DNA of 64,000 nucleotides from Pseudomonadales bacterium (GCA_965200235.1 OZ241339.1:372508-436507); one strand, 5' to 3'; counted from the stretch's first letter, positions 56,562 to 64,000 are shown. Notes: a model not told the origin generated them from the letters alone. Program-made: numbers and translations.

Positions 56562-56705
56562 CTAAGCTGTTGGCGAAGATGCGCCGGTCGCCATGCGTCG
56601 CCATGCTAAGATGCGGCGATTTTGCGTGCCGCTACGCATGATCCGTGCGTTCTGAGCTGTCTTCTCAGCGCGTTTTCCACTCGAACGAACAGGCTTCATT
56701 CCGTT

Positions 56706-58736
56706 ATGCAGACAGAACTTCTACTTCCGCCGTTGATCGGCTTGCTTGGCCTCATCGCCGCCGGTGTCATCTATCTCATCGTCAAGCGCTATCCCGAAGG
56801 CGAGGATGCCCTCAAGGAAATTGCCGAGACCATTCATCAGGGCGCGATGGTGTTCATGCGCCGCGAATACTCGAACCTCGCCATGTTTGCGGCCATCTTG
56901 CTGGTGGCCTTGTGGTTTTCGCTTGGCACCGAGACAGCCCTTGCCTTTTTTGCGGGTGCGCTGTCGTCCGCGCTTGCTGGCTGGCTCGGCATGTACACTG
57001 CGACGCGCGCCAATGTGCGCACGACCACCGCTGCCCACACCAAAGGCATGCCGGAAGCCCTGTCAGTCGCGTTCTTCGGCGGCTCGATCATGGGCCTTGC
57101 GGTGGCGGCCTTGGGATTGCTCGGTCTCGGCACGGTCTACTTCTTCTTCGGTGGCGACCCGCACACTGCCGAGCACATTCACGGCTTCGGCATGGGCGCA
57201 TCGGTGGTGGCGCTCTTTTCGCGTGTCGGTGGCGGCATCTACACCAAGAGCGCCGATGTCGGCGCTGATTTGGTCGGCAAAATCGAAGCCGGCATCCCTG
57301 AAGACGACCCGCGCAATCCGGGTGTGATCGCCGATAACGTTGGCGACAACGTGGGTGACGTCGCTGGCATGGGGTCTGACATCTTCGAATCCTACTGCGG
57401 CTCGATGATCGCGACCATTGCGATTGCCGCGACTTTGAGTGCGGCGGCCGTCGAATTGGTCGCGCCTGGCCTCGGCGAAGACGCTGGCAAGGCGAGCCTC
57501 ATGTTTCTGCCGCTTGCGCTCGCATCGGCCGGACTTCTCTGTTCAATCCTCGGCATCGGTGTCGTGCGCGCCTTCTCATCGGCAAACCCCGCCAAGGCCC
57601 TTCGCATCGGCATGATCGCAACGCCGGTAATGTTCTTAGGCGTTGCGTGGTTCGTCGTCTCGGCGAGTGGGGTCAGCGCCAATGTGTGGACGGCCGTGCT
57701 GCTCGGCTCGGTCGGCGGCGTGGTCATCGGGCTCGTCACCGAGTATTACACCTCGGCGAGTCCTATCCGCAAGATCGCTGAATCGGGACAGACAGGGCCG
57801 GCGACGGTGATCATCGCCGGATTTGCCAACGGCATGCAGTCGGTGGTGGTGCCGCTGCTCACCATCTGCGCCATCATCTGGTTCTCGACCGAACTCGCCG
57901 GTCTGTATGGCGTCGGCATCGCCGCGGTCGGTTTGCTTGCGACGGTCGGCATGACCATGGCCGTGGATGCCTACGGGCCGGTGGCGGACAACGCCGGCGG
58001 CATCGCCGAGATGGGCGGCCTCGGCGAAGATACGCGCCGTATCACCGATTCGCTCGACGAAGTTGGCAACACTACGGCGGCGCTCGGCAAAGGCTTCGCT
58101 ATTGGCGCTGCGGCCTTGGCGGCGCTCGCCATCATCACCGCCTATGTGGAGACCATCAGCCTTGGTATGGAGGGCGAGTTTTCCCTGCACCTCGGCGACC
58201 CGAAGGTGTTGATCGGTATTTTCATCGGCGGCATCACGCCGTTCCTGATCGCATCCTTGACCATGACCTCGGTCGGCGATGCGGCAATGGATATGGTCAA
58301 CGAAATTAGGCGTCAGTTTCGCGAGATTCCCGGTCTGCTCGAAGGCTCCGGCAAGCCCGACACCGAGCGCTGCATCGACATCGCGACGCGCGCTGCGCTC
58401 AGGCGGATGATCGTGCCGGGGGTGATTGCGGTTGGCGTGCCGCCGCTTGTCGGCTTCGGCATCGGGCCGGAGGCATTGGGCGGCGCGCTCGGCGGCGGCT
58501 TGCTCGGCTGCGTGCTGCTTGCGCTCACCATGGCGAATGCCGGCGGCGCGTGGGACAACGCCAAGAAGTTTGTCGAGAAGGGCAATCTCGGCGGCAAGGG
58601 TTCTGCGGCGCATGCGGCCAATGTGGTTGGCGACACGGTGGGCGACCCGTTCAAGGACACATCCGGGCCGAGCATGAACATCCTCATCAACGTGATGGCG
58701 ATCGTGTCGCTGGTGATTGCGCCGCTATTGGTATAG
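56706..58736 (+). CDS. hppA: membrane-bound proton/sodium-translocating pyrophosphatase
   Basis: From ATG 56706: [23 protein letters not shown] ... [56 protein letters not shown] ... [15 protein letters not shown] ... [14 protein letters not shown] ... [20 protein letters not shown], canonical H+-PPase motifs. The track ORF begins at 56622. Confidence 0.9.
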
Positions 58737-58762: not shown

Positions 58763-59437
58763 TCAGCCAGCGAGGAATTCTTCGATCTGATCGGCCATAT
58801 TGCCGCAGGCGTTTGCCTGCACGCGCGCGATCATCGGCACTGGCACGATGATCGCTGGCATGAACGAGGTGCCGGAGGCTTGCGAGCTGATCTTGCCGAC
58901 GGCGGCGTTCTGCTGCACGTCCCAGATCGAGGCTTCGTAATTGGAAGACCGCTCCCAACTGACGAAGCCGAAGCAGCCCGCGGCGCCGGGCGTGGCGGCG
59001 CAGGTCATGCCGCCGCTCGATCCGGTGTTCTCGGTCGTGCCTTCAATCCACACGATGTAGCGTACGCCAAGCCCTTCGATTCGGTCTTTGAGCAGCGGCT
59101 CGTCGATCTGCGCACTAAATTCGCGCATCTCGCGTGGGGCGAAGCGCGGCTCGAACCACGGGAAAGTGCGGTCCTTGAAGTGTTCTTGAGAGATGACTTG
59201 GAACGGGGTTTTCGAGCTGCCGAGCGAGCGGCCAACACAGTCGATGTACTCGATTTCGGTTTCGTGGCCAGCGGTTTGCAGGTTCTTGCCGAGCACCACC
59301 ACCGCGTCTTGTCCGCCGATGCCGGTGCTGCCTTCCCGCAGCACTTGAACGCTTGAGTTGACGCAGCCGCCGAGAAGAATTGTCAATAAGACGGCGCAGA
59401 GCAGAGGGCGCATCGCGATGCTCAAAAAAGTTTGCAT
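58763..59437 (-). CDS. putative lipoprotein
   Basis: 224-aa ORF with signal peptide and lipobox LTILLGGC. It is the last gene of the minus-strand MotA-vWA cluster. No family recognised. Confidence 0.45.
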   Translation of the reverse strand: MQTFLSIAMRPLLCAVLLTILLGGCVNSSVQVLREGSTGIGGQDAVVVLGKNLQTAGHETEIEYIDCVGRSLGSSKTPFQVISQEHFKDRTFPWFEPRFAPREMREFSAQIDEPLLKDRIEGLGVRYIVWIEGTTENTGSSGGMTCAATPGAAGCFGFVSWERSSNYEASIWDVQQNAAVGKISSQASGTSFMPAIIVPVPMIARVQANACGNMADQIEEFLAG

Positions 59438-59443
59438 CAGATA

Positions 59444-60076
59444 TTACCCGCTTTCCTCCAAGCGTTGCTGTAGCCAGGTTTGAATGCCCGGCTGCGAAGG
59501 AAGTTGGCGTGCGATCAGCGCTGAGGCGTCGCGCAGCGCCGTTCGTGTGGCGGCGGCGAGCGCGGCGCCCGATTCGGAACTGCCGAGCACCCGGAAATTG
59601 CGTGTGTCGGAGCGCCCGTAGGCGGAGACGGTCCAGTTGAGCACTTCGTGACCCTGCGGCTCGAGCAGCTCGATGCGATAGACGATGCGCACCTCGAAGA
59701 ACTCGGTTTGCGTTTGCTGCGGGATGCTGAGCTCTGATCTGACAACGCTCGCTTTGAGCACGAGACCCGCATCGAGCGCCGCTTCGCCCATGCCGCTGAT
59801 GTTTGATGCGGTGGTGAACAGCGCGCGCGTCGTCTGTTCGAGCATGCGCTGCTGATCTTGCCCGAAGCTGACGCGCCAATCGCCGTAGCCCTCGATCGTT
59901 TCCTCGTGTACGTAGCTCTGGAACGCAGCGTCGGTCAACAGCCCGATATGAACCGGCAGCGGCTGCACGAGCGGCAGCGGATAGCTGCCCTGCATCTCCA
60001 CCTGCGCCCCGCTGCAGCCCGCAAGCAGCAACGCCAACAAGAATCTCGCCCGAAAAAGGGACACACACCACCTCAT
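59444..60076 (-). CDS. putative lipoprotein
   Basis: Start chosen at ATG 60076 (MRWCVSLFRARFLLALLLAGCSG, lipobox LLAGC). The longer track ORF (to 60238) runs through the 12-mer repeat array and is probably spurious. Confidence 0.45.
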   Translation of the reverse strand: MRWCVSLFRARFLLALLLAGCSGAQVEMQGSYPLPLVQPLPVHIGLLTDAAFQSYVHEETIEGYGDWRVSFGQDQQRMLEQTTRALFTTASNISGMGEAALDAGLVLKASVVRSELSIPQQTQTEFFEVRIVYRIELLEPQGHEVLNWTVSAYGRSDTRNFRVLGSSESGAALAAATRTALRDASALIARQLPSQPGIQTWLQQRLEESG

Positions 60077-60231
60077 GCCGCGCAGTCTACCGAAAAACCG
60101 AAAAAGGGACACACACCGAAAGGGGACACACACCGTCAAAAGGGACACACACCGTCGCGCCGCCGAACACCGAAAAGGGACACACACTGCCGAACGGAGC
60201 GCATGGAAGGGGAAGCAGAAGGGGACACACC
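60058..60231 (+). repeat. array of six copies of GGGACACACAC(C) with irregular 8-35-nt spacing
   Basis: Copies at 60058, 60106, 60123, 60142, 60177 and 60222 (the last is GGGACACACCT), most preceded by an A-run. The array lies between the vWA gene stop (60254) and the lipoprotein gene start. Confidence 0.85.
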
Positions 60232-60253
60232 TCCCCAAACGCGGTGCGTGCGT

Positions 60254-61270
60254 CTATTGAAGTTCGGCGGCACCGACAAATGCGCCGAGATTGCGGTGGG
60301 TGAGCTCGCGCATGAGGGCAGCGAATCGATAGGCCCTCCCGCGCAATTCTGGCGGCGCATTCGGCTCGAACCCGACAGGGAATCCGACAGCGTGAATGCG
60401 CACGCGCCGCCTTCCAGTGACTTGGCTCGTTCGGTTGGCTCTATCGACGGCGTCCACAACGCTTTGGATGGTATTGCCCTGTTGAAAATCGTCGCCGAAG
60501 ACGTAGATCGAAATCTCAAGGCTTGGATCATAGTAGGCCGAAATCGCGCGCTGGATGCCTTCGACGGGACTTGAGTTGGAAAACGGATTCCATGACGCAA
60601 GGCGGTCGACAATCTGCCTGCGCACAGTTGGCGAGTCCGGCATCCAGCGTCCGGCGAAGCTGCGAAACATGTAGTCACCCATGTCATTCATCACTTGAAT
60701 GCCTTTGACTTCCGGGTAGATGGCGAGCACTTCGCCGACTTTGCGCCGCACGCCTTCCCAAGCGTAGCTGAACATGCTGCCAGATGTATCGATGACAAAG
60801 ATGATGTACTCGCTGTCGGCGGTGATGCCGCCGATGGCGTTCTCGCCGCTGACACCGGCGGTCGCTTGCAGCGCCAGCATTTGCTCGGTGAGCGATTGGC
60901 GTGCGCTCGATAGGCCGCGTGCGCGCTCGCTGAGCAGATATTCTTGTTCTTCGGATTGCTTGATTTCCTGTTCGATTCGCGCCATGCGCGTGCGCAAGGA
61001 TTGGATTGTCTTGGCGGCCTCGTCGAGTTCGACCTGCTTGTCGGACAAGGCGAGCTTTGCGCGGTCGGATTCATCGCGCGAGTCAAGCAGGGCGTCGCGC
61101 ATCACTGCGATACGCGCTTCTAGGTCTTCGAGCGACTTGTCATAAAGCGCTGGCTCTGATGTTTCCGTGACCATGAGCAACAGCAGCAATCCGCCGAAGC
61201 CGCAGCAGATCATGGCTAGAAACGGCATGCCGAAGTCTTCGTTGTCGCTGTCGCGGCGGCGCTTGATCAT
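60254..61270 (-). CDS. TM - coiled-coil - von Willebrand factor A domain protein
   Basis: 338-aa ORF. N-terminal TM helix (MPFLAMICCGFGGLLLLLMV), a long heptad-like segment (LEDLEARIAVMRDALL...RMARIEQEIKQSEEQ), then vWA with the MIDAS motif FVIDTSGSM. Confidence 0.65.
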   Translation of the reverse strand: MIKRRRDSDNEDFGMPFLAMICCGFGGLLLLLMVTETSEPALYDKSLEDLEARIAVMRDALLDSRDESDRAKLALSDKQVELDEAAKTIQSLRTRMARIEQEIKQSEEQEYLLSERARGLSSARQSLTEQMLALQATAGVSGENAIGGITADSEYIIFVIDTSGSMFSYAWEGVRRKVGEVLAIYPEVKGIQVMNDMGDYMFRSFAGRWMPDSPTVRRQIVDRLASWNPFSNSSPVEGIQRAISAYYDPSLEISIYVFGDDFQQGNTIQSVVDAVDRANRTSQVTGRRRVRIHAVGFPVGFEPNAPPELRGRAYRFAALMRELTHRNLGAFVGAAELQ

Positions 61271-61284
61271 GCGGGCGACTGTTC

Positions 61285-62355
61285 CTACGGCCAGTCCGAG
61301 GATGGAGATAGAAAGGAGCCGCCCGTTGAGCGCGCAAGCTCCCAGTAGGCGCCCGCAGCCGCATTGTCGCCTTCCAGCGGCAGCAGGATGACGTTGAAGA
61401 TAATCCCCGGCGTGACGAGATTGACGGCATCGAAGAACAGGCGCAAGCGATCTTGCGCTGAGATGGTGTTACTGCGCGGCGTCCGGCGGCCGATCGTCGG
61501 CAAGCCATCAGTGACTAGGAACACGCGATCAGGCCGCGGCGCAAGCGTACCCAGCGTATCGATCAGCGCCGCGAGGTTCGTTCCGCCTTCAGGCGTCACC
61601 TCATCAAGCGCGTCAAAGGCGCGCTGAAGATGATCGCCGGTGGCGCTTGGTCGCCATGTTGTCTGTCCCAATACCGAGCGAGCTTTTTCGTTGAACACGA
61701 TGAGCTCGAACTGGCTGTTGATTGGCAGTGACGCGGCAATCCAGTTGGCGGTGCGAAGGGTGCGCAGCCATTTTTCGGATGCGCGCCGCTCATCCGCAGG
61801 GAGGTTGCGGCGGCGTATGGCATTGACCAAGGTCTCGTCGAGCATGCTTGCCGAGGCGTCAATGGCAACCACGATGTGACTGCCGTCCATGCGCATGCCG
61901 GAGAGATACTGGCGGCTGCCTTCGCCTTCGAGTTCTCGTAGTGATGTGCCGCCGCCGTCCTCGCCTTCGGCTTCCAAGACCTCGACTTGTGCCTTTTGTG
62001 CGTCTACTTGGCGCGCCAAGGTGTCGATGCGGGTTTTTTCGTTGCTCAAACCCGAGCGTTTGAACTTCAGCAGCGCCTCGTCTGCCTCCACCTGCTCGCG
62101 AAGTCGCGCTTCGTTTTGACGCGCCTCAAACAGCTTGCGTTCTATTTCGCTGATGGTCGCCTGTATCTCGTCAAGATCAATGTCCTTTTCCTCGTAGAGA
62201 AAATCGAGGCGCCGCATTTCTGCGAGCAGGAGTTCGTCGCTTTCGCGGTCTTGTGGAATGTTCAAGATGAAGAATACAAGTGCGACAGCAGCAAAGCCAC
62301 ACGAAATCACGTCTAAGAAGGACATGGAGAAGGTGGTGAGCTTTCTACGCGCCAT
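61285..62355 (-). CDS. TM - coiled-coil - von Willebrand factor A domain protein (paralog of 60254-61270)
   Basis: Start chosen at ATG 62355 (MARRKLTTFSMSFLDVISCGFAAVALVFFIL). It has a coiled coil and a vWA domain with MIDAS VAIDASASM. The TM helix contains an Asp, as in ExbD/TolR/MotB-type stator partners. Confidence 0.65.
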   Translation of the reverse strand: MARRKLTTFSMSFLDVISCGFAAVALVFFILNIPQDRESDELLLAEMRRLDFLYEEKDIDLDEIQATISEIERKLFEARQNEARLREQVEADEALLKFKRSGLSNEKTRIDTLARQVDAQKAQVEVLEAEGEDGGGTSLRELEGEGSRQYLSGMRMDGSHIVVAIDASASMLDETLVNAIRRRNLPADERRASEKWLRTLRTANWIAASLPINSQFELIVFNEKARSVLGQTTWRPSATGDHLQRAFDALDEVTPEGGTNLAALIDTLGTLAPRPDRVFLVTDGLPTIGRRTPRSNTISAQDRLRLFFDAVNLVTPGIIFNVILLPLEGDNAAAGAYWELARSTGGSFLSPSSDWP

Positions 62356-63688
62356 GCTCTGAGACGCGGATGGCGAGGACGGTGTGTGTCCCAATTGTCG
62401 CTGTGCTGCCAGCGGTGAGGCGATGTATGCGCCGACCCTGATGGGAAATCTCAAGGGCTTTCGTCACAGGCGCGATCGAAAAGGTATTCGCTGGCAACGC
62501 ACGCACGGCCGTCGCAAGGTCAACCTTGGTGAAGATCGGCGTTGCAACGCCTTGATACACGATGTGCGTCGGCGCAGGTTCAGGTGGGGGCATGGCGGTG
62601 TGTGTCCCATTCTGTACCGTGTGTGTCCCATTCTGCTCGTCGGTGTGTGTCCCCTCGGTCGCGGTGTGTGTCCCAAATGACGCTGTCCCGCTCGAGGTGA
62701 GCGAGGTCACAAACTGCACGCCATCGCCGTCGCATACACCGAAGTGCTGTGTATTCGCCAAGATGCCTTGAATGTGCGCATCGCCCGCGAGTGCGTGGCA
62801 GTCACCGATGTCGAGTGATCGCAGGGCGCCCATCAGTCCGGGGATGCGCGCCGCCCGCTGCGTGACCGCGAACTGCGTGCGAGAGGCGCTGCCGCATGCC
62901 GCAGCGATAGCGCTCGCGAGCTTTGTCGCGGTTTGCTCAAGTTCGCGGACATCAAAACTCACATGCCAGTTGCCAGTTTGGTGTTTGACTTCGAGGTGCA
63001 GTCCATTGCTCTGCGTTTCGATTTTGCCGCTCACCCAGTCGTAGAGCCTTGACCATAATTGCTGCTCAGTGTCGGCGATGCGCAATGGGTCGAACCGGGT
63101 CTCGCGCACGAACTCATCGGCAACGCGCGCAAGCCACGCATCGAGCAGTGGCAAGAGGCCGCCCTCAGGCATGGACTCCACGACATCGCGCACGATTTCG
63201 TCGTGCTGCCGTACAAGTCGCGTCAACGAAATCTGCTGGAGCGTGACATCAAGCACCCAATCCGCGGAGTCGGCCGCACCCGCCGCAACGCTTGCATCGA
63301 CAAATGCCAAGGGTGTCACCGAGGTTTCCTCCACGATGCCAAGTAGCAGAGCGAGCTGATCCTTGCTGTAGTGGCTTGGCACAGCAAAGACCGCGCTCGC
63401 GCCTTGAGCGCTGCTCTTTTCAATCAGTTGCTCAAGTTGATTGAAGACCAAATCGGCGCTTGATCGCACATTCTTGTGACGCGAGCGTAGTGGCGATGCG
63501 TCGAGCCGATGCCAATAGCTGTCGTGGGCGGCGAGCGGCGAGCGTCTGTGCTCGCGCAGCGCTTGCTCGCCAAAAATCAACACCTTGGGCTCCACGAGCG
63601 CGAACCCTGGCATCTGCACTTCACTGGTTTTACCAGAGTATGCCGAGAGCTCCCAGTCGTTGAGGTCGAACACCTTCAAGGGTGTCAT
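62345..63688 (-). CDS. hypothetical protein, possibly degenerate actin/Hsp70-fold ATPase, with C-terminal GTHT repeats
   Basis: 447-aa ORF. AVFAVPSHYSKDQLALLLGIVEETSVTPLAFVDASVAAGAA resembles the Hsp70/actin 'ITVPAYF...INEPTAAA' segment. The C-terminal region holds 5 GTHT peptides encoded by the 12-mer GGGACACACACC. There is an ATGA overlap with the MotA-like gene. Confidence 0.35.
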   Translation of the reverse strand: MTPLKVFDLNDWELSAYSGKTSEVQMPGFALVEPKVLIFGEQALREHRRSPLAAHDSYWHRLDASPLRSRHKNVRSSADLVFNQLEQLIEKSSAQGASAVFAVPSHYSKDQLALLLGIVEETSVTPLAFVDASVAAGAADSADWVLDVTLQQISLTRLVRQHDEIVRDVVESMPEGGLLPLLDAWLARVADEFVRETRFDPLRIADTEQQLWSRLYDWVSGKIETQSNGLHLEVKHQTGNWHVSFDVRELEQTATKLASAIAAACGSASRTQFAVTQRAARIPGLMGALRSLDIGDCHALAGDAHIQGILANTQHFGVCDGDGVQFVTSLTSSGTASFGTHTATEGTHTDEQNGTHTVQNGTHTAMPPPEPAPTHIVYQGVATPIFTKVDLATAVRALPANTFSIAPVTKALEISHQGRRIHRLTAGSTATIGTHTVLAIRVSEHGA

Positions 63689-64000
63689 TCTCGTACCGTC
63701 ATATGCCGAATGAGTTGCTCGTCACAGTAGCGCTGTGCATCGAGCACGAGGCGCTCCTGCACGAGTTGAAGCTGATAGACAAAGAACATCACGAGGATGC
63801 TAATTAGAAGGGCGATGAACGTGGAATTGAACGCGACGCCGAGGGAAGCGGTGACGCCAGAGATGTCCCCTTTTTGGACAACCTCGTCAACACGCCCCAA
63901 AGCTTGGCCGATGCCGCGCACCGTGCCAATGAACCCGATCGACGGAATCGCCCAGGCGATATAGCGCACCATCGCCAGCTCGCTGTCGAGTCGCTCGGCT
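63685..64000 (-). CDS. MotA/TolQ/ExbB proton-channel family protein (C-terminal part; 5' end beyond window)
   Basis: AIPSIGFIGTVRGIGQALG ... GVAFNSTFIALLISILVMFFVYQL matches the conserved last two TM helices of MotA/ExbB/TolQ. The reading frame stays open upstream of the ATG at 63972 to the window edge. Confidence 0.7.
   Translation of the reverse strand, partial: AERLDSELAMVRYIAWAIPSIGFIGTVRGIGQALGRVDEVVQKGDISGVTASLGVAFNSTFIALLISILVMFFVYQLQLVQERLVLDAQRYCDEQLIRHMTVRE

What the first reader, a model, noticed from the sequence alone, without database searches (positions are those of the whole stretch)
58763..64000. MotA/ExbB-like channel + actin/Hsp70-like protein + two TM-coiled-coil-vWA proteins + two lipoproteins in one operon
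Seen in sequence:
- Six same-strand genes with overlaps or tiny gaps: ATGA at 63685-63688, an 11-nt overlap at 62345-62355, a 14-nt gap at 61270-61285 and a 6-nt gap at 59437-59444.
- Both vWA proteins have an N-terminal single TM helix, a long coiled coil and a MIDAS motif (DTSGSM, DASASM).
- One of the TM helices contains an Asp (FLDVISCGF), as in ExbD/TolR/MotB/ZorB stator partners.

Established:
- MotA/ExbB/TolQ-family channels energise partner proteins using the proton-motive force.
- Zorya defence uses a MotAB-like stator.

Inference: this looks like a PMF-driven envelope machine in which vWA proteins replace the usual ExbD/MotB periplasmic domains. I do not recognise it as a characterised system. 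The operon is cut by the window edge, so upstream components are unknown.
Basis: partly seen in the sequence, partly recalled or inferred. Interest (0 to 1): 0.6.

Follow-up and report, generated by a model that had tools for sequence, protein, structure and literature searches.

The report
Proton motor with vWA-headed axle
The stretch is the back half of a conserved 12-gene operon in a sponge-symbiont bacterium that most likely builds a proton-driven membrane motor whose central axle is two adhesion-type (vWA) proteins; the motor core was predicted by computer in 2025, nobody has tested its function, and this lineage has lost one of the two proton-binding residues.

Summary

The main inference also holds.
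- The MotA/TolQ-like gene is not part of a tol or ton operon. A 99%-identical strain and eight more distant genomes show one fixed 12-gene operon with no ExbD/TolR/MotB gene.
- Both vWA proteins start with an ExbD/TolR-like helix (SFLDV.SCGFG).
- The channel keeps both pore threonines.
- The "actin/Hsp70-like" protein folds as an Hsp70 nucleotide-binding domain (pLDDT 90). It lacks the glycine phosphate loops and carries a small FHA-like tail.

The idea is not new. Williams-Jones et al. 2025 (Mol Biol Evol, PMC12204202) predicted TolQ-like pentamers with paired "transpore-helix vWA" proteins, with no experiments. That paper does not mention Hsp70, FHA or PEGA; I did not search it for the other partner genes.

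One feature is special to this lineage. The second vWA protein has replaced the proton-binding Asp by Ala or Ser. This was a single event on a long branch, while 106 other orthologues keep Asp. The axle would therefore have a single protonatable site.

Function remains unknown.

Verdict: real, an uncharacterised variant of a computationally known kind, moderate interest.

The parts
63685..64000 (-). Gene G: C-terminal 104 residues of a MotA/TolQ/ExbB-family channel, cut by the window edge (258-275 aa in relatives). It holds the last two TM helices, with pore Thr codons at 63922-63924 (GTV) and 63820-63822 (NST).
   Evidence: Pfam MotA_ExbB, E 3.2e-13. Alignment of the L003 orthologue to E. coli TolQ puts GTV and NST on TolQ T145 and T178. 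TM3-TM4 are near-identical across nine loci. Codons checked.
62345..63688 (-). Gene H: 447-aa cytoplasmic protein. It has an Hsp70-NBD-like domain (res 1-338, nt 62675-63688), a disordered GTHT-repeat linker (res 339-367, nt 62588-62674) and a small FHA-like beta domain (res 368-447, nt 62348-62587). Its start overlaps the stop of G (ATGA).
   Evidence: AF2 model, pLDDT 90.1, pTM 0.75. Foldseek against PDB: the top 50 matches are all Hsp70/Hsp110 proteins (mostly their NBDs), E about 1e-13, TM up to 0.68. No Pfam hit for this protein. FHA (PF00498) is found in 2 of 36 homologues. The Gly-rich phosphate loops are absent from the family consensus. The family has 2276 cluster representatives.
61285..62355 (-). 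Gene I (vWA1): 356 aa. It has a short basic N-terminus, a transpore-type helix MSFLDVISCGF with Asp15 (62311-62313), a stalk of about 120 residues predicted to be coiled coil, and a vWA domain with a full MIDAS (DASASM 61843-61860, GGT, TDG).
   Evidence: Pfam VWA_2, 30.6 bits, above threshold. Asp is conserved in all nine loci. Coiled-coil-type hits to EnvC, SMC and similar proteins. Codons checked.
60254..61270 (-). Gene J (vWA2): 338-aa paralogue of I. Its transpore-type helix MPFLAMICCGF has Ala19 (61214-61216) where orthologues have Asp. It also has a stalk and a divergent vWA domain (DTSGSM 60773-60790).
   Evidence: hhalign of I against J profiles: 99.2%, 235 columns, including the TM helix, stalk and MIDAS. 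106 of 119 top homologues have Asp; the 13 of this clade have Ala or Ser. The Asp-less group is one branch with 100/100 support. The spacing from Asp position to MIDAS is 142 residues in 117 of 117 homologues.
60077..60253 (-). J-K spacer of 177 nt. It holds most of a cluster of five copies of GGTGTGTGTCCC on the coding strand, one with a mismatch; the cluster spans 60058-60188, and the last copy overlaps the start of gene K. The motif is the reverse complement of the 12-mer repeated in the H linker.
   Evidence: Elsewhere the spacing is 10 nt (L006) or 32-33 nt (L008, L010); in L009 gene K is called 358 nt after J.
59444..60076 (-). Gene K: lipoprotein of about 210 aa (lipobox LLLAGC, Ser at +2). 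Fold unassigned.
   Evidence: ORF and lipobox. Orthologues are present in all loci. The only family hint is Pfam LptE at E 0.0064, below threshold. No PDB sequence match. Not detectably related to L (hhalign 24%).
58763..59437 (-). Gene L: lipoprotein of 216-224 aa (lipobox LLGGC), the last gene of the operon. It is convergent with an H+-pyrophosphatase gene (56622-58736, + strand).
   Evidence: 297 homologues, with 43 invariant columns including four Cys. AF2 model, pLDDT 77. Best Foldseek matches are the ring-forming outer-membrane lipoproteins PelC, HpaA, FlgT, CsgG and LptE, at low TM (0.3-0.6).

Best explanation
Window 58763-64000 is the 3' half of a 12-gene, chromosomally inherited operon. 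The gene order is:

- A: secreted TPR protein with a TonB_C domain
- B: Gly/Ser-rich lipoprotein
- C: lipoprotein
- D: TM-TPR protein
- E: TM protein with PEGA repeats and a GldK-like FGE-sulfatase fold
- F: small acidic secreted protein with a conserved C-terminal peptide
- G: MotA/TolQ-like channel
- H: Hsp70-NBD-like protein with an FHA-like tail
- I and J: paralogous proteins, each with a transpore helix, a coiled coil and a vWA domain
- K and L: lipoproteins

Most likely mechanism (inferred):
1. Five G subunits form the proton channel ring in the inner membrane.
2. One I and one J insert their N-terminal helices into the ring, in the place that ExbD, TolR or MotB dimers occupy.
3. Proton flow through Asp15 of I and the Thr ring of G turns or ratchets the ring relative to the I/J axle.
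4. The two stalks have fixed, matched lengths: 142 residues in J, 151-154 in I. As a coiled coil that would be about 17-18 nm. They carry two MIDAS vWA heads across the periplasm.
5. The heads grip an acidic ligand on one of the operon's own periplasmic or outer-membrane proteins (F, C, E, K or L) and so pass force to it.
6. H sits on the cytoplasmic face of G. It is translationally coupled to G and probably acts as a non-catalytic regulator or clutch.

In this lineage J has lost its Asp, so the motor would run on a single protonatable site.

Shown: domain content, homology, motif conservation, synteny and the H fold. Inferred: 5:2 stoichiometry, I/J heterodimer, periplasmic location of the heads, their ligand and the physiological output.
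For: **Channel.** Pfam MotA_ExbB, E 3.2e-13. The best PDB sequence match is TolQ, with both pore Thr aligned. TM3 and TM4 are almost invariant across nine loci.

**Axle.**
- SFLDV[IM][SC]CGFG sits at residues 11-22 after a basic N-terminus in I and in J orthologues.
- I and J are paralogues over the helix, stalk and MIDAS.
- Stalk length is invariant in 117 of 117 J homologues.

**No conventional partner.** No ExbD/TolR/MotB family hit appears in any of the 12 proteins.

**Synteny.** The same 12 genes occur in the same order in L011 (99.0% DNA identity to the window), L002-L006, L008 and L009, and, as far as the locus reaches (from gene E onward), L010. The flanks differ: tusA with H+-PPase, or tusA with methyltransferase and suf.

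**H.** Hsp70-NBD fold at pLDDT 90.

**Independent prediction.** PMC12204202 predicts the same core from AF3 models.

**Mobility.** No plasmid copies and no defence-system hits.
Against: - No complex model could be made here and there is no experimental data anywhere.
- J lacks the Asp in this clade, so a symmetric two-Asp rotary cycle cannot operate as drawn for MotAB or ExbBD.
- The vWA fold of J is below Pfam thresholds.
- The ligand of the heads and the role of nine of the twelve proteins are guesses.
- H lacks the Gly-rich nucleotide loops, so an ATP-dependent role is doubtful.
The upstream half is therefore taken from a 99%-identical strain.
Confidence: 0.7

Rival explanations
1. Same motor, opposite direction of work. 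The vWA heads and the periplasmic proteins form a fixed anchor, as MotB's peptidoglycan-binding domain or ZorB do. The G ring then rotates around the anchored axle and does its work, or signals, in the cytoplasm on the Hsp70-like/FHA-like protein H.
For: - H is cytoplasmic and as conserved as the motor (2276 cluster representatives).
- H is translationally coupled to G (ATGA).
- The stalks have a rigidly fixed length.
- There are many candidate scaffold proteins: TPR, PEGA and lipoproteins.
- The flagellar stator and Zorya work this way (established knowledge; PMC9389320 read).
Against: - G has only a short cytoplasmic tail and no ZorA-like extension.
- H has no recognisable enzymatic or effector domain and lacks nucleotide loops.
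- MIDAS heads suggest reversible ligand capture rather than permanent anchoring.
Confidence: 0.18
2. In this lineage it is not an active motor. Loss of the Asp in J, together with life as a sponge symbiont, means the complex has become a static trans-periplasmic scaffold or adhesin anchor, comparable to the membrane-anchored vWA proteins BatA and BatB. G would then be only a structural collar.
For: - Asp to Ala or Ser in all 13 clade members.
- A long stem branch of 0.81 leads to the clade.
- Repeat insertions lie in the H linker and in the J-K spacer.
Against: - I keeps its Asp and G keeps both pore Thr in every clade member.
- All 12 genes stay intact, and J is 76-88% identical within the clade, which indicates purifying selection.
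- Heterodimeric axles need only one helix engaged at a time in current 5:2 models (inference).
Confidence: 0.07
3. It is an anti-phage defence system of the Zorya type, with a MotAB-like sensor.
For: Weak PADLOC and NCBIfam hits of the MotA domain to ZorA (E 6e-4 and 0.037). The window also holds mobile elements and conflict systems upstream.
Against: - The ZorA hits cover only the shared MotA domain. There is no ZorB, ZorC, ZorD or ZorE, and no nuclease or helicase.
- No other PADLOC hit beyond coiled-coil noise.
- The operon sits in the same housekeeping context (tusA, H+-PPase or suf) across genera.
- No plasmid copies.
Confidence: 0.03
4. It is a canonical tolQRA or exbBD-tonB operon whose TolR/ExbD gene lies just outside the window.
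For: The window cuts the MotA-like gene. Gene A of the operon carries a TonB_C domain (26 bits against a cut-off of 24.6 in L006).
Against: - In the 99%-identical strain L011 and in seven of the eight other relatives (L010's locus starts only at gene E), the six genes upstream of G encode TPR, lipoprotein, PEGA/FGE and small secreted proteins. None is ExbD/TolR.
- Gene A has a signal peptide rather than a TonB-type anchor.
Confidence: 0.02

Closest known systems
TolQ-like pentamers with paired 'transpore-helix vWA' (TPH-vWA) proteins, predicted in Williams-Jones et al. 2025, Mol Biol Evol 42:msaf138 (PMC12204202)
   Same: - A tolQ/motA-like gene is tightly linked to two heterologous TM-tethered vWA genes.
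- There is no tolR or exbD gene.
- The helix is ExbD-like and carries the proton-binding Asp.
- The pore Thr ring is conserved.
- The family is found mainly in Proteobacteria, and its function is unknown.
   Different: - The paper describes a conserved pair of Asp, one per vWA monomer. Here J has Ala.
- The paper does not mention Hsp70, FHA or PEGA (term search). I did not search it for the lipoproteins, the TPR/TonB_C protein or the acidic secreted protein, which are co-conserved here.
- I could not compare directly with the paper's Idiomarina seed sequence.
TolQR-TolA / ExbBD-TonB (Tol-Pal and Ton systems)
   Same: The channel belongs to the same family and has the same pore Thr. The axle helix motif resembles ExbD and TolR (my recollection: ExbD PFIDVMLVLL, TolR PLLDVLLVLL). 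The task, coupling inner-membrane PMF to the outer envelope, is the same. One operon protein bears a TonB_C domain.
   Different: - There is no ExbD/TolR periplasmic domain.
- There is no separate TolA/TonB-type transducer with an SHLS anchor, so the axle itself would be the transducer.
- The axle is a heterodimer.
- G appears to have four TM helices with the N-terminus inside (read from the sequence), like MotA rather than TolQ.
Flagellar stator MotAB/PomAB and Zorya ZorAB
   Same: The 5:2-type channel family and an Asp in the plug helix.
   Different: There is no OmpA-like peptidoglycan-binding domain, no ZorA tail and no ZorC, ZorD or ZorE. There is no flagellar or defence context.
Type IX secretion / gliding motor GldLM-GldKN (PorLMKN)
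   Same: - A PMF motor whose periplasm-spanning subunit reaches an outer-membrane-proximal assembly.
- The FGE-sulfatase domain of E matches the GldK/PorK model best (NCBIfam TIGR03525, E 2e-26).
- Lipoprotein L resembles ring-forming outer-membrane lipoproteins.
   Different: GldL and GldM are not homologous to G, I or J. E scores 93 bits against a GldK cut-off of 350, so it is not an orthologue. The host is a gammaproteobacterium.
Myxococcus Agl-Glt gliding machinery with the vWA adhesin CglB
   Same: A TolQ/TolR-type motor with two different plug subunits (AglQ and AglS), TPR and TonB_C-bearing partners, and a MIDAS vWA protein in the pathway (PMC9389320; PMC9946355 listed).
   Different: In Agl-Glt the vWA protein is a separate outer-membrane lipoprotein and is not fused to the plug helix. 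No Glt family hits were found here. The H protein is absent from Agl-Glt.

Membership tests
TPH-vWA / TolQ-like predicted motors (PMC12204202) | TM-tethered vWA genes tightly linked to a tolQ/motA-like gene | tested here: met
   G, H, I and J are consecutive with overlaps or a 14-nt gap. The same order holds in nine other loci.
TPH-vWA / TolQ-like predicted motors (PMC12204202) | No tolR/exbD/motB gene in the cluster | tested here: met
   Pfam and NCBIfam scans of all 12 proteins give no ExbD, TolR or MotB/OmpA hit.
TPH-vWA / TolQ-like predicted motors (PMC12204202) | Two heterologous vWA paralogues | tested here: met
   hhalign of I against J: 99.2% probability with only 16% identity.
TPH-vWA / TolQ-like predicted motors (PMC12204202) | Conserved proton-binding Asp in the transpore helix of each vWA monomer | tested here: not met
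   I has Asp15. J has Ala19. All 13 members of this clade have Ala or Ser, while 106 other J orthologues have Asp. By descent it belongs to the family, but it departs from this feature.
TPH-vWA / TolQ-like predicted motors (PMC12204202) | Ring of conserved Thr in the channel lumen | tested here: met
   GTV and NST align with TolQ T145 and T178 and are invariant in nine loci.
TPH-vWA / TolQ-like predicted motors (PMC12204202) | 5:2 complex with the helices inside the pentamer | not testable with these tools
   No multimer prediction is available.
Tol-Pal / Ton systems | TolR/ExbD (PF02472) partner and a TolA/TonB transducer with an SHLS-type anchor | tested here: not met
   No PF02472 hit. The only TonB_C protein (A) starts with a cleavable signal peptide and TPRs.
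Zorya | ZorA with a long tail, ZorB with a peptidoglycan-binding domain, and ZorC/D or ZorE | tested here: not met
   PADLOC gives only a marginal ZorA hit on the MotA domain (E 6e-4) and nothing else.
Hsp70/actin (ASKHA) ATPases (protein H) | Two-lobed ASKHA fold | tested here: met
   AF2 model at pLDDT 90. Foldseek finds Hsp70 NBDs at E about 1e-13 and TM 0.57-0.68.
Hsp70/actin (ASKHA) ATPases (protein H) | Gly-rich phosphate-1, phosphate-2 and adenosine loops (my recollection of Hsp70: DLGTT, DLGGGT, GG..R) | tested here: not met
   The family consensus of 151 sequences has ELND, LD..LH and R.A.LPGL at those places. H is probably a pseudo-ATPase.
FHA domain (C-terminus of H) | Pfam PF00498 match | tested here: inconclusive
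   There is no hit for the window protein, and 2 of 36 homologues hit at up to 3.2e-10. The model shows a seven-strand beta domain of about 75 residues.
vWA domain with MIDAS | DxSxS, Thr and Asp metal site on a Rossmann-like fold | tested here: met
   - I: Pfam VWA_2 above threshold, with DASAS, GGT and TDG.
- J: DTSGS and GDD are present, the Thr position is Ser in SNSSP by profile alignment, and Pfam is below threshold.
T9SS GldK/PorK (protein E of relatives) | NCBIfam TIGR03525 equivalog score | tested here: not met
   93 bits against a cut-off of 350. E shares the fold family and is not an orthologue.

The most novel reading that the evidence does not exclude
The 12 genes form a distinct, self-contained class of energised trans-envelope machine, separate from Tol and Ton. 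Its rotating or ratcheting axle is itself the force transducer and ends in two integrin-like heads.

The sponge-symbiont clade would be a natural single-Asp version. It would show that one protonatable residue per axle dimer is enough to drive a 5:2 motor, or that it converts the motor into a one-way ratchet.
Probability: 0.3. Interest if true: 0.75.

Novelty: new variant of a known kind. Interest (0 to 1): 0.55.

Why it matters
Ion-driven 5:2 motors power flagella, Ton uptake, Tol-Pal envelope maintenance, gliding, type IX secretion and Zorya defence. This operon would add a widespread family with no known job. The second vWA protein alone has at least 7990 clusters, and the Hsp70-like partner has 2276 cluster representatives.

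The family also has an unusual design. The axle carries metal-dependent adhesion heads on stalks of strictly fixed length, and the operon supplies its own periplasmic and outer-membrane partners.

The clade found here offers a natural test of a mechanistic question in the field: does a 5:2 motor need both Asp residues of the axle dimer? The practical limit is that this organism is an uncultured sponge symbiont, so experiments must use cultured relatives.

Tried and rejected
- **Own genome.** An exact look-up of H found nothing. An exact look-up of J gave only a 2.7-kb contig. I used L011, a 99.0%-identical strain, instead.
- **Sequence searches of I, J and K against PDB.** These returned only coiled-coil noise.
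- **K and L as paralogues.** Rejected (hhalign 24%).
- **Defence reading.** Rejected.
- **Literature.** Only PMC12204202 describes the core. I found no report of single-Asp axle dimers.
- **RNA evidence.** No run marked as RNA holds the locus; the four runs returned are of unknown kind, so expression is untested.
- **Internal signals.** There are no promoter-like sites, and only weak terminator-like sites (11 against 5.5 expected by chance), inside the six genes.
- **SHLS-like pattern in protein A of L006.** It is not shared by A of L008 or L003, so I dropped it.


Full report
**1. What is in the window.**

ORF listing shows six consecutive minus-strand genes at the right end of the window.

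| Gene | Coordinates | Product |
|---|---|---|
| G | 63685 to beyond 64000 | MotA/TolQ/ExbB-family channel, C-terminal 104 residues |
| H | 62345-63688 | 447 aa |
| I | 61285-62355 | 356 aa, counted from the ATG of MARRKL |
| J | 60254-61270 | 338 aa |
| K | 59444-60076 | lipoprotein, from the ATG of MRWCVSLF…LLLAGC |
| L | 58763-59437 | lipoprotein, LLGGC |

- The J-K junction was not mentioned. It is a 177-nt spacer.
- A scan found no promoter-like sites and only weak terminator-like sites inside the stretch.
- L is convergent with an H+-pyrophosphatase gene at 56622-58736.
- Exact codons were re-translated: Asp15 of I in MSFLDVISCG, Ala19 of J in MPFLAMICCG, DASASM, DTSGSM, and the two Thr of G.

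**2. The operon beyond the window.**

- A scan of species genomes with H found four Pseudomonadales MAGs, one of them a Candidatus Azotimanducus chromosome.
- Exact look-ups of more distant homologues added L006, L008, L009 and L010.
- L011 is a metagenome contig 99.0% identical to the window over 5.3 kb.
- L002-L006, L008, L009 and L011 carry the same 12 genes in the same order (and the gene tables). L010 shows the same order from gene E onward, where its locus begins.

| Gene | Product | Evidence |
|---|---|---|
| A | secreted TPR protein ending in a TonB_C domain | Pfam 26 bits against a cut-off of 24.6 in L006, |
| B | Gly/Ser-rich lipoprotein with a conserved C-terminal helix | |
| C | lipoprotein of about 425 aa | |
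| D | TM-TPR protein | |
| E | TM protein with PEGA repeats and an FGE-sulfatase fold whose best NCBIfam match is GldK/PorK | E 2e-26, far below cut-off; |
| F | acidic secreted protein of 81-109 aa with a conserved C-terminus …ISED..V.FP.DI | |
| G-L | as listed in section 1 | |

- The flanks differ between lineages. tusA lies upstream in all loci whose flank was read. Downstream there is H+-PPase in this lineage and a methyltransferase plus the suf operon in others. The 12 genes are therefore the unit.
- None of the 12 proteins hits ExbD/TolR, MotB/OmpA or a defence family.
- J has no homologue on 72,556 plasmids.
- DNA runs holding the stretch are sponge metagenomes, so the host is a sponge symbiont.

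**3. The motor core.**

- G hits Pfam MotA_ExbB (E 3.2e-13 for the window fragment).
- The best PDB sequence match of its full-length orthologue is E. coli TolQ. The alignment puts GTV and NST on TolQ T145 and T178, the pore threonines. Both lie inside the window, at 63922-63924 and 63820-63822.
- The last two TM helices are nearly invariant across nine loci.
- I and J both begin with a short basic segment followed by SFLDV[IM][SC]CGFG…. From my own knowledge of ExbD (PFIDVMLVLL, Asp25) and TolR (PLLDVLLVLL, Asp23), this is the plug-helix motif with the proton-binding Asp.
- Profile comparison shows that I and J are paralogues across the helix, stalk and MIDAS region (99.2%, 235 columns, 16% identity).
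- I passes Pfam VWA_2 and has a complete MIDAS. J has DTSGS and GDD, with Ser at the Thr position.
- The distance from the Asp position to the MIDAS Asp is exactly 142 residues in 117 of 117 J homologues. In I it is 154, or 151 in this species.
- A stalk of about 120 residues would be roughly 17-18 nm if it is a coiled coil. That is enough to reach the outer part of the periplasm (inference).

**4. The clade-specific change.**

- Among the 119 best J homologues with a readable motif, 106 have Asp.
- The 13 that are at least 76% identical to the window have Ala (11) or Ser (2).
- In a maximum-likelihood tree these 13 form one group with 100/100 support on a long stem branch of 0.81. This points to a single loss.
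- I keeps Asp and G keeps both Thr in the clade.
- All 12 genes remain intact, which argues against decay.
- The axle would therefore have one protonatable site.

**5. Protein H.**

- The AF2 model on 36 homologues is confident (pLDDT 90.1).
- Residues 1-338 match Hsp70 nucleotide-binding domains (DnaK, Ssz1, Hsp70-x and others; E about 1e-13, TM up to 0.68).
- The consensus of 151 family members lacks the Gly-rich phosphate and adenosine loops. It has ELND, LD..LH and R.A.LPGL instead. I read H as a pseudo-ATPase scaffold.
- Residues 339-367 are disordered and consist of GTHT repeats.
- Residues 368-447 form a seven-strand beta domain. Two of 36 homologues hit Pfam FHA there.
- The family has 2276 cluster representatives at E ≤ 1e-3 and 1219 at E ≤ 1e-30.

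**6. The lipoproteins.**

- L has 297 homologues and four invariant Cys. Its model (pLDDT 77) resembles the ring-forming outer-membrane lipoproteins PelC, HpaA, FlgT, CsgG and LptE, though at low TM (0.3-0.6). I take this as a fold class only.
- K has only a sub-threshold LptE hint and is not detectably related to L.

**7. What is known.**

A note search pointed to Williams-Jones et al. 2025, which I read.

[quoted passage not shown] They occur mostly as heterologous pairs.
- No phenotype is known.
- A term search of the paper found no mention of Hsp70, FHA or PEGA; the other partner genes were not searched for.
- A text search found no other paper on this system.

The core idea is therefore published as a prediction. 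This locus is a member by descent. It departs from the "pair of Asp" feature and comes with a fixed set of nine further genes.

**8. Mechanism and rivals.**

- Best reading (0.7): a G pentamer with an I/J heterodimeric axle, driven through Asp15 of I. It presents two MIDAS heads to operon-encoded periplasmic or outer-membrane partners, with H as a cytoplasmic regulator.
- Main rival (0.18): the same motor, but the heads serve as anchors and the work is done on H in the cytoplasm.
- Minor rivals: a static scaffold in this clade (0.07), a defence system (0.03) and a canonical Tol/Ton operon (0.02).
- The physiological output is unknown. By analogy with Tol-Pal I favour an envelope-maintenance or surface-remodelling role, but nothing here tests that.

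**9. Verdict.**

The locus is a variant of a kind known only from computation. The function is untested and the organism is uncultured. Interest is 0.55.

Noticed in passing
window 60058-60188 (+) and 62381-62674 (-): Ten of the window's eleven copies of GGGACACACACC lie in this operon (0.28 expected by chance). Five are on the coding strand in H: four encode the GTHT linker repeats and one encodes IGTHTV near the C-terminus. Five are reverse-complement copies in the J-K spacer, so on one mRNA the two clusters could pair and bracket genes I and J. Like-placed copies occur in L002, L003 and L005 (in L005 only the H-side copies), and further copies lie elsewhere in those loci.
   Followed up: partly
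window 62661: The contigs laid from three sponge-metagenome runs (X5, X8, X9), and also L011, carry an 18-nt insertion here. It adds one 12-mer repeat, which is six more linker residues in H. The repeat number therefore varies between strains that are 99% identical.
   Followed up: yes
L010 3779-8913: In a 2.0-Mb genome the operon is split between H and I by about 5 kb. The insert carries a phage-integrase-family gene and several ORFs without Pfam hits. DDE transposase genes lie nearby.
   Followed up: no
L009 4461-6505: The PEGA/FGE gene E is called as two genes of 158 and 523 aa in this 7.2-Mb genome.
   Followed up: no
L003 8921-9193; L006 8908-9153; L008 8905-9186; L011 8936-9217: The small acidic secreted protein F is low-complexity except for a conserved C-terminal peptide ([FI][IV]P[ST]E.ISED..V.FP[IV]DI-COOH). 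It is a candidate docking motif for a MIDAS head or a TPR partner.
   Followed up: partly
window 62250-62270 (I residues 30-36): In this species (window and L011), protein I has a 3-residue deletion just after the TM helix. Its Asp-to-MIDAS spacing is 151, against 154 in the seven other loci.
   Followed up: no
window 63850-63900: The periplasmic loop between the last two TM helices of G reads GRVDEVVQKGDISG here and in L011. The other loci read GQAY[KR]AVE-GDI[AS]G (SQAYEAVG-GDIAG in L009). The change includes a one-residue insertion and is species-specific.
   Followed up: no
window 32434-56262 and 56622-58736: A 7942-aa repeat protein with an autotransporter-like C-terminus lies upstream, and an H+-pyrophosphatase gene is convergent with gene L. 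In the close relatives whose flank was read, a large convergent gene lies after gene L (676 aa in L003, taken to be the pyrophosphatase but not scanned). The more distant operons lack both neighbours, so they are not part of the system.
   Followed up: partly
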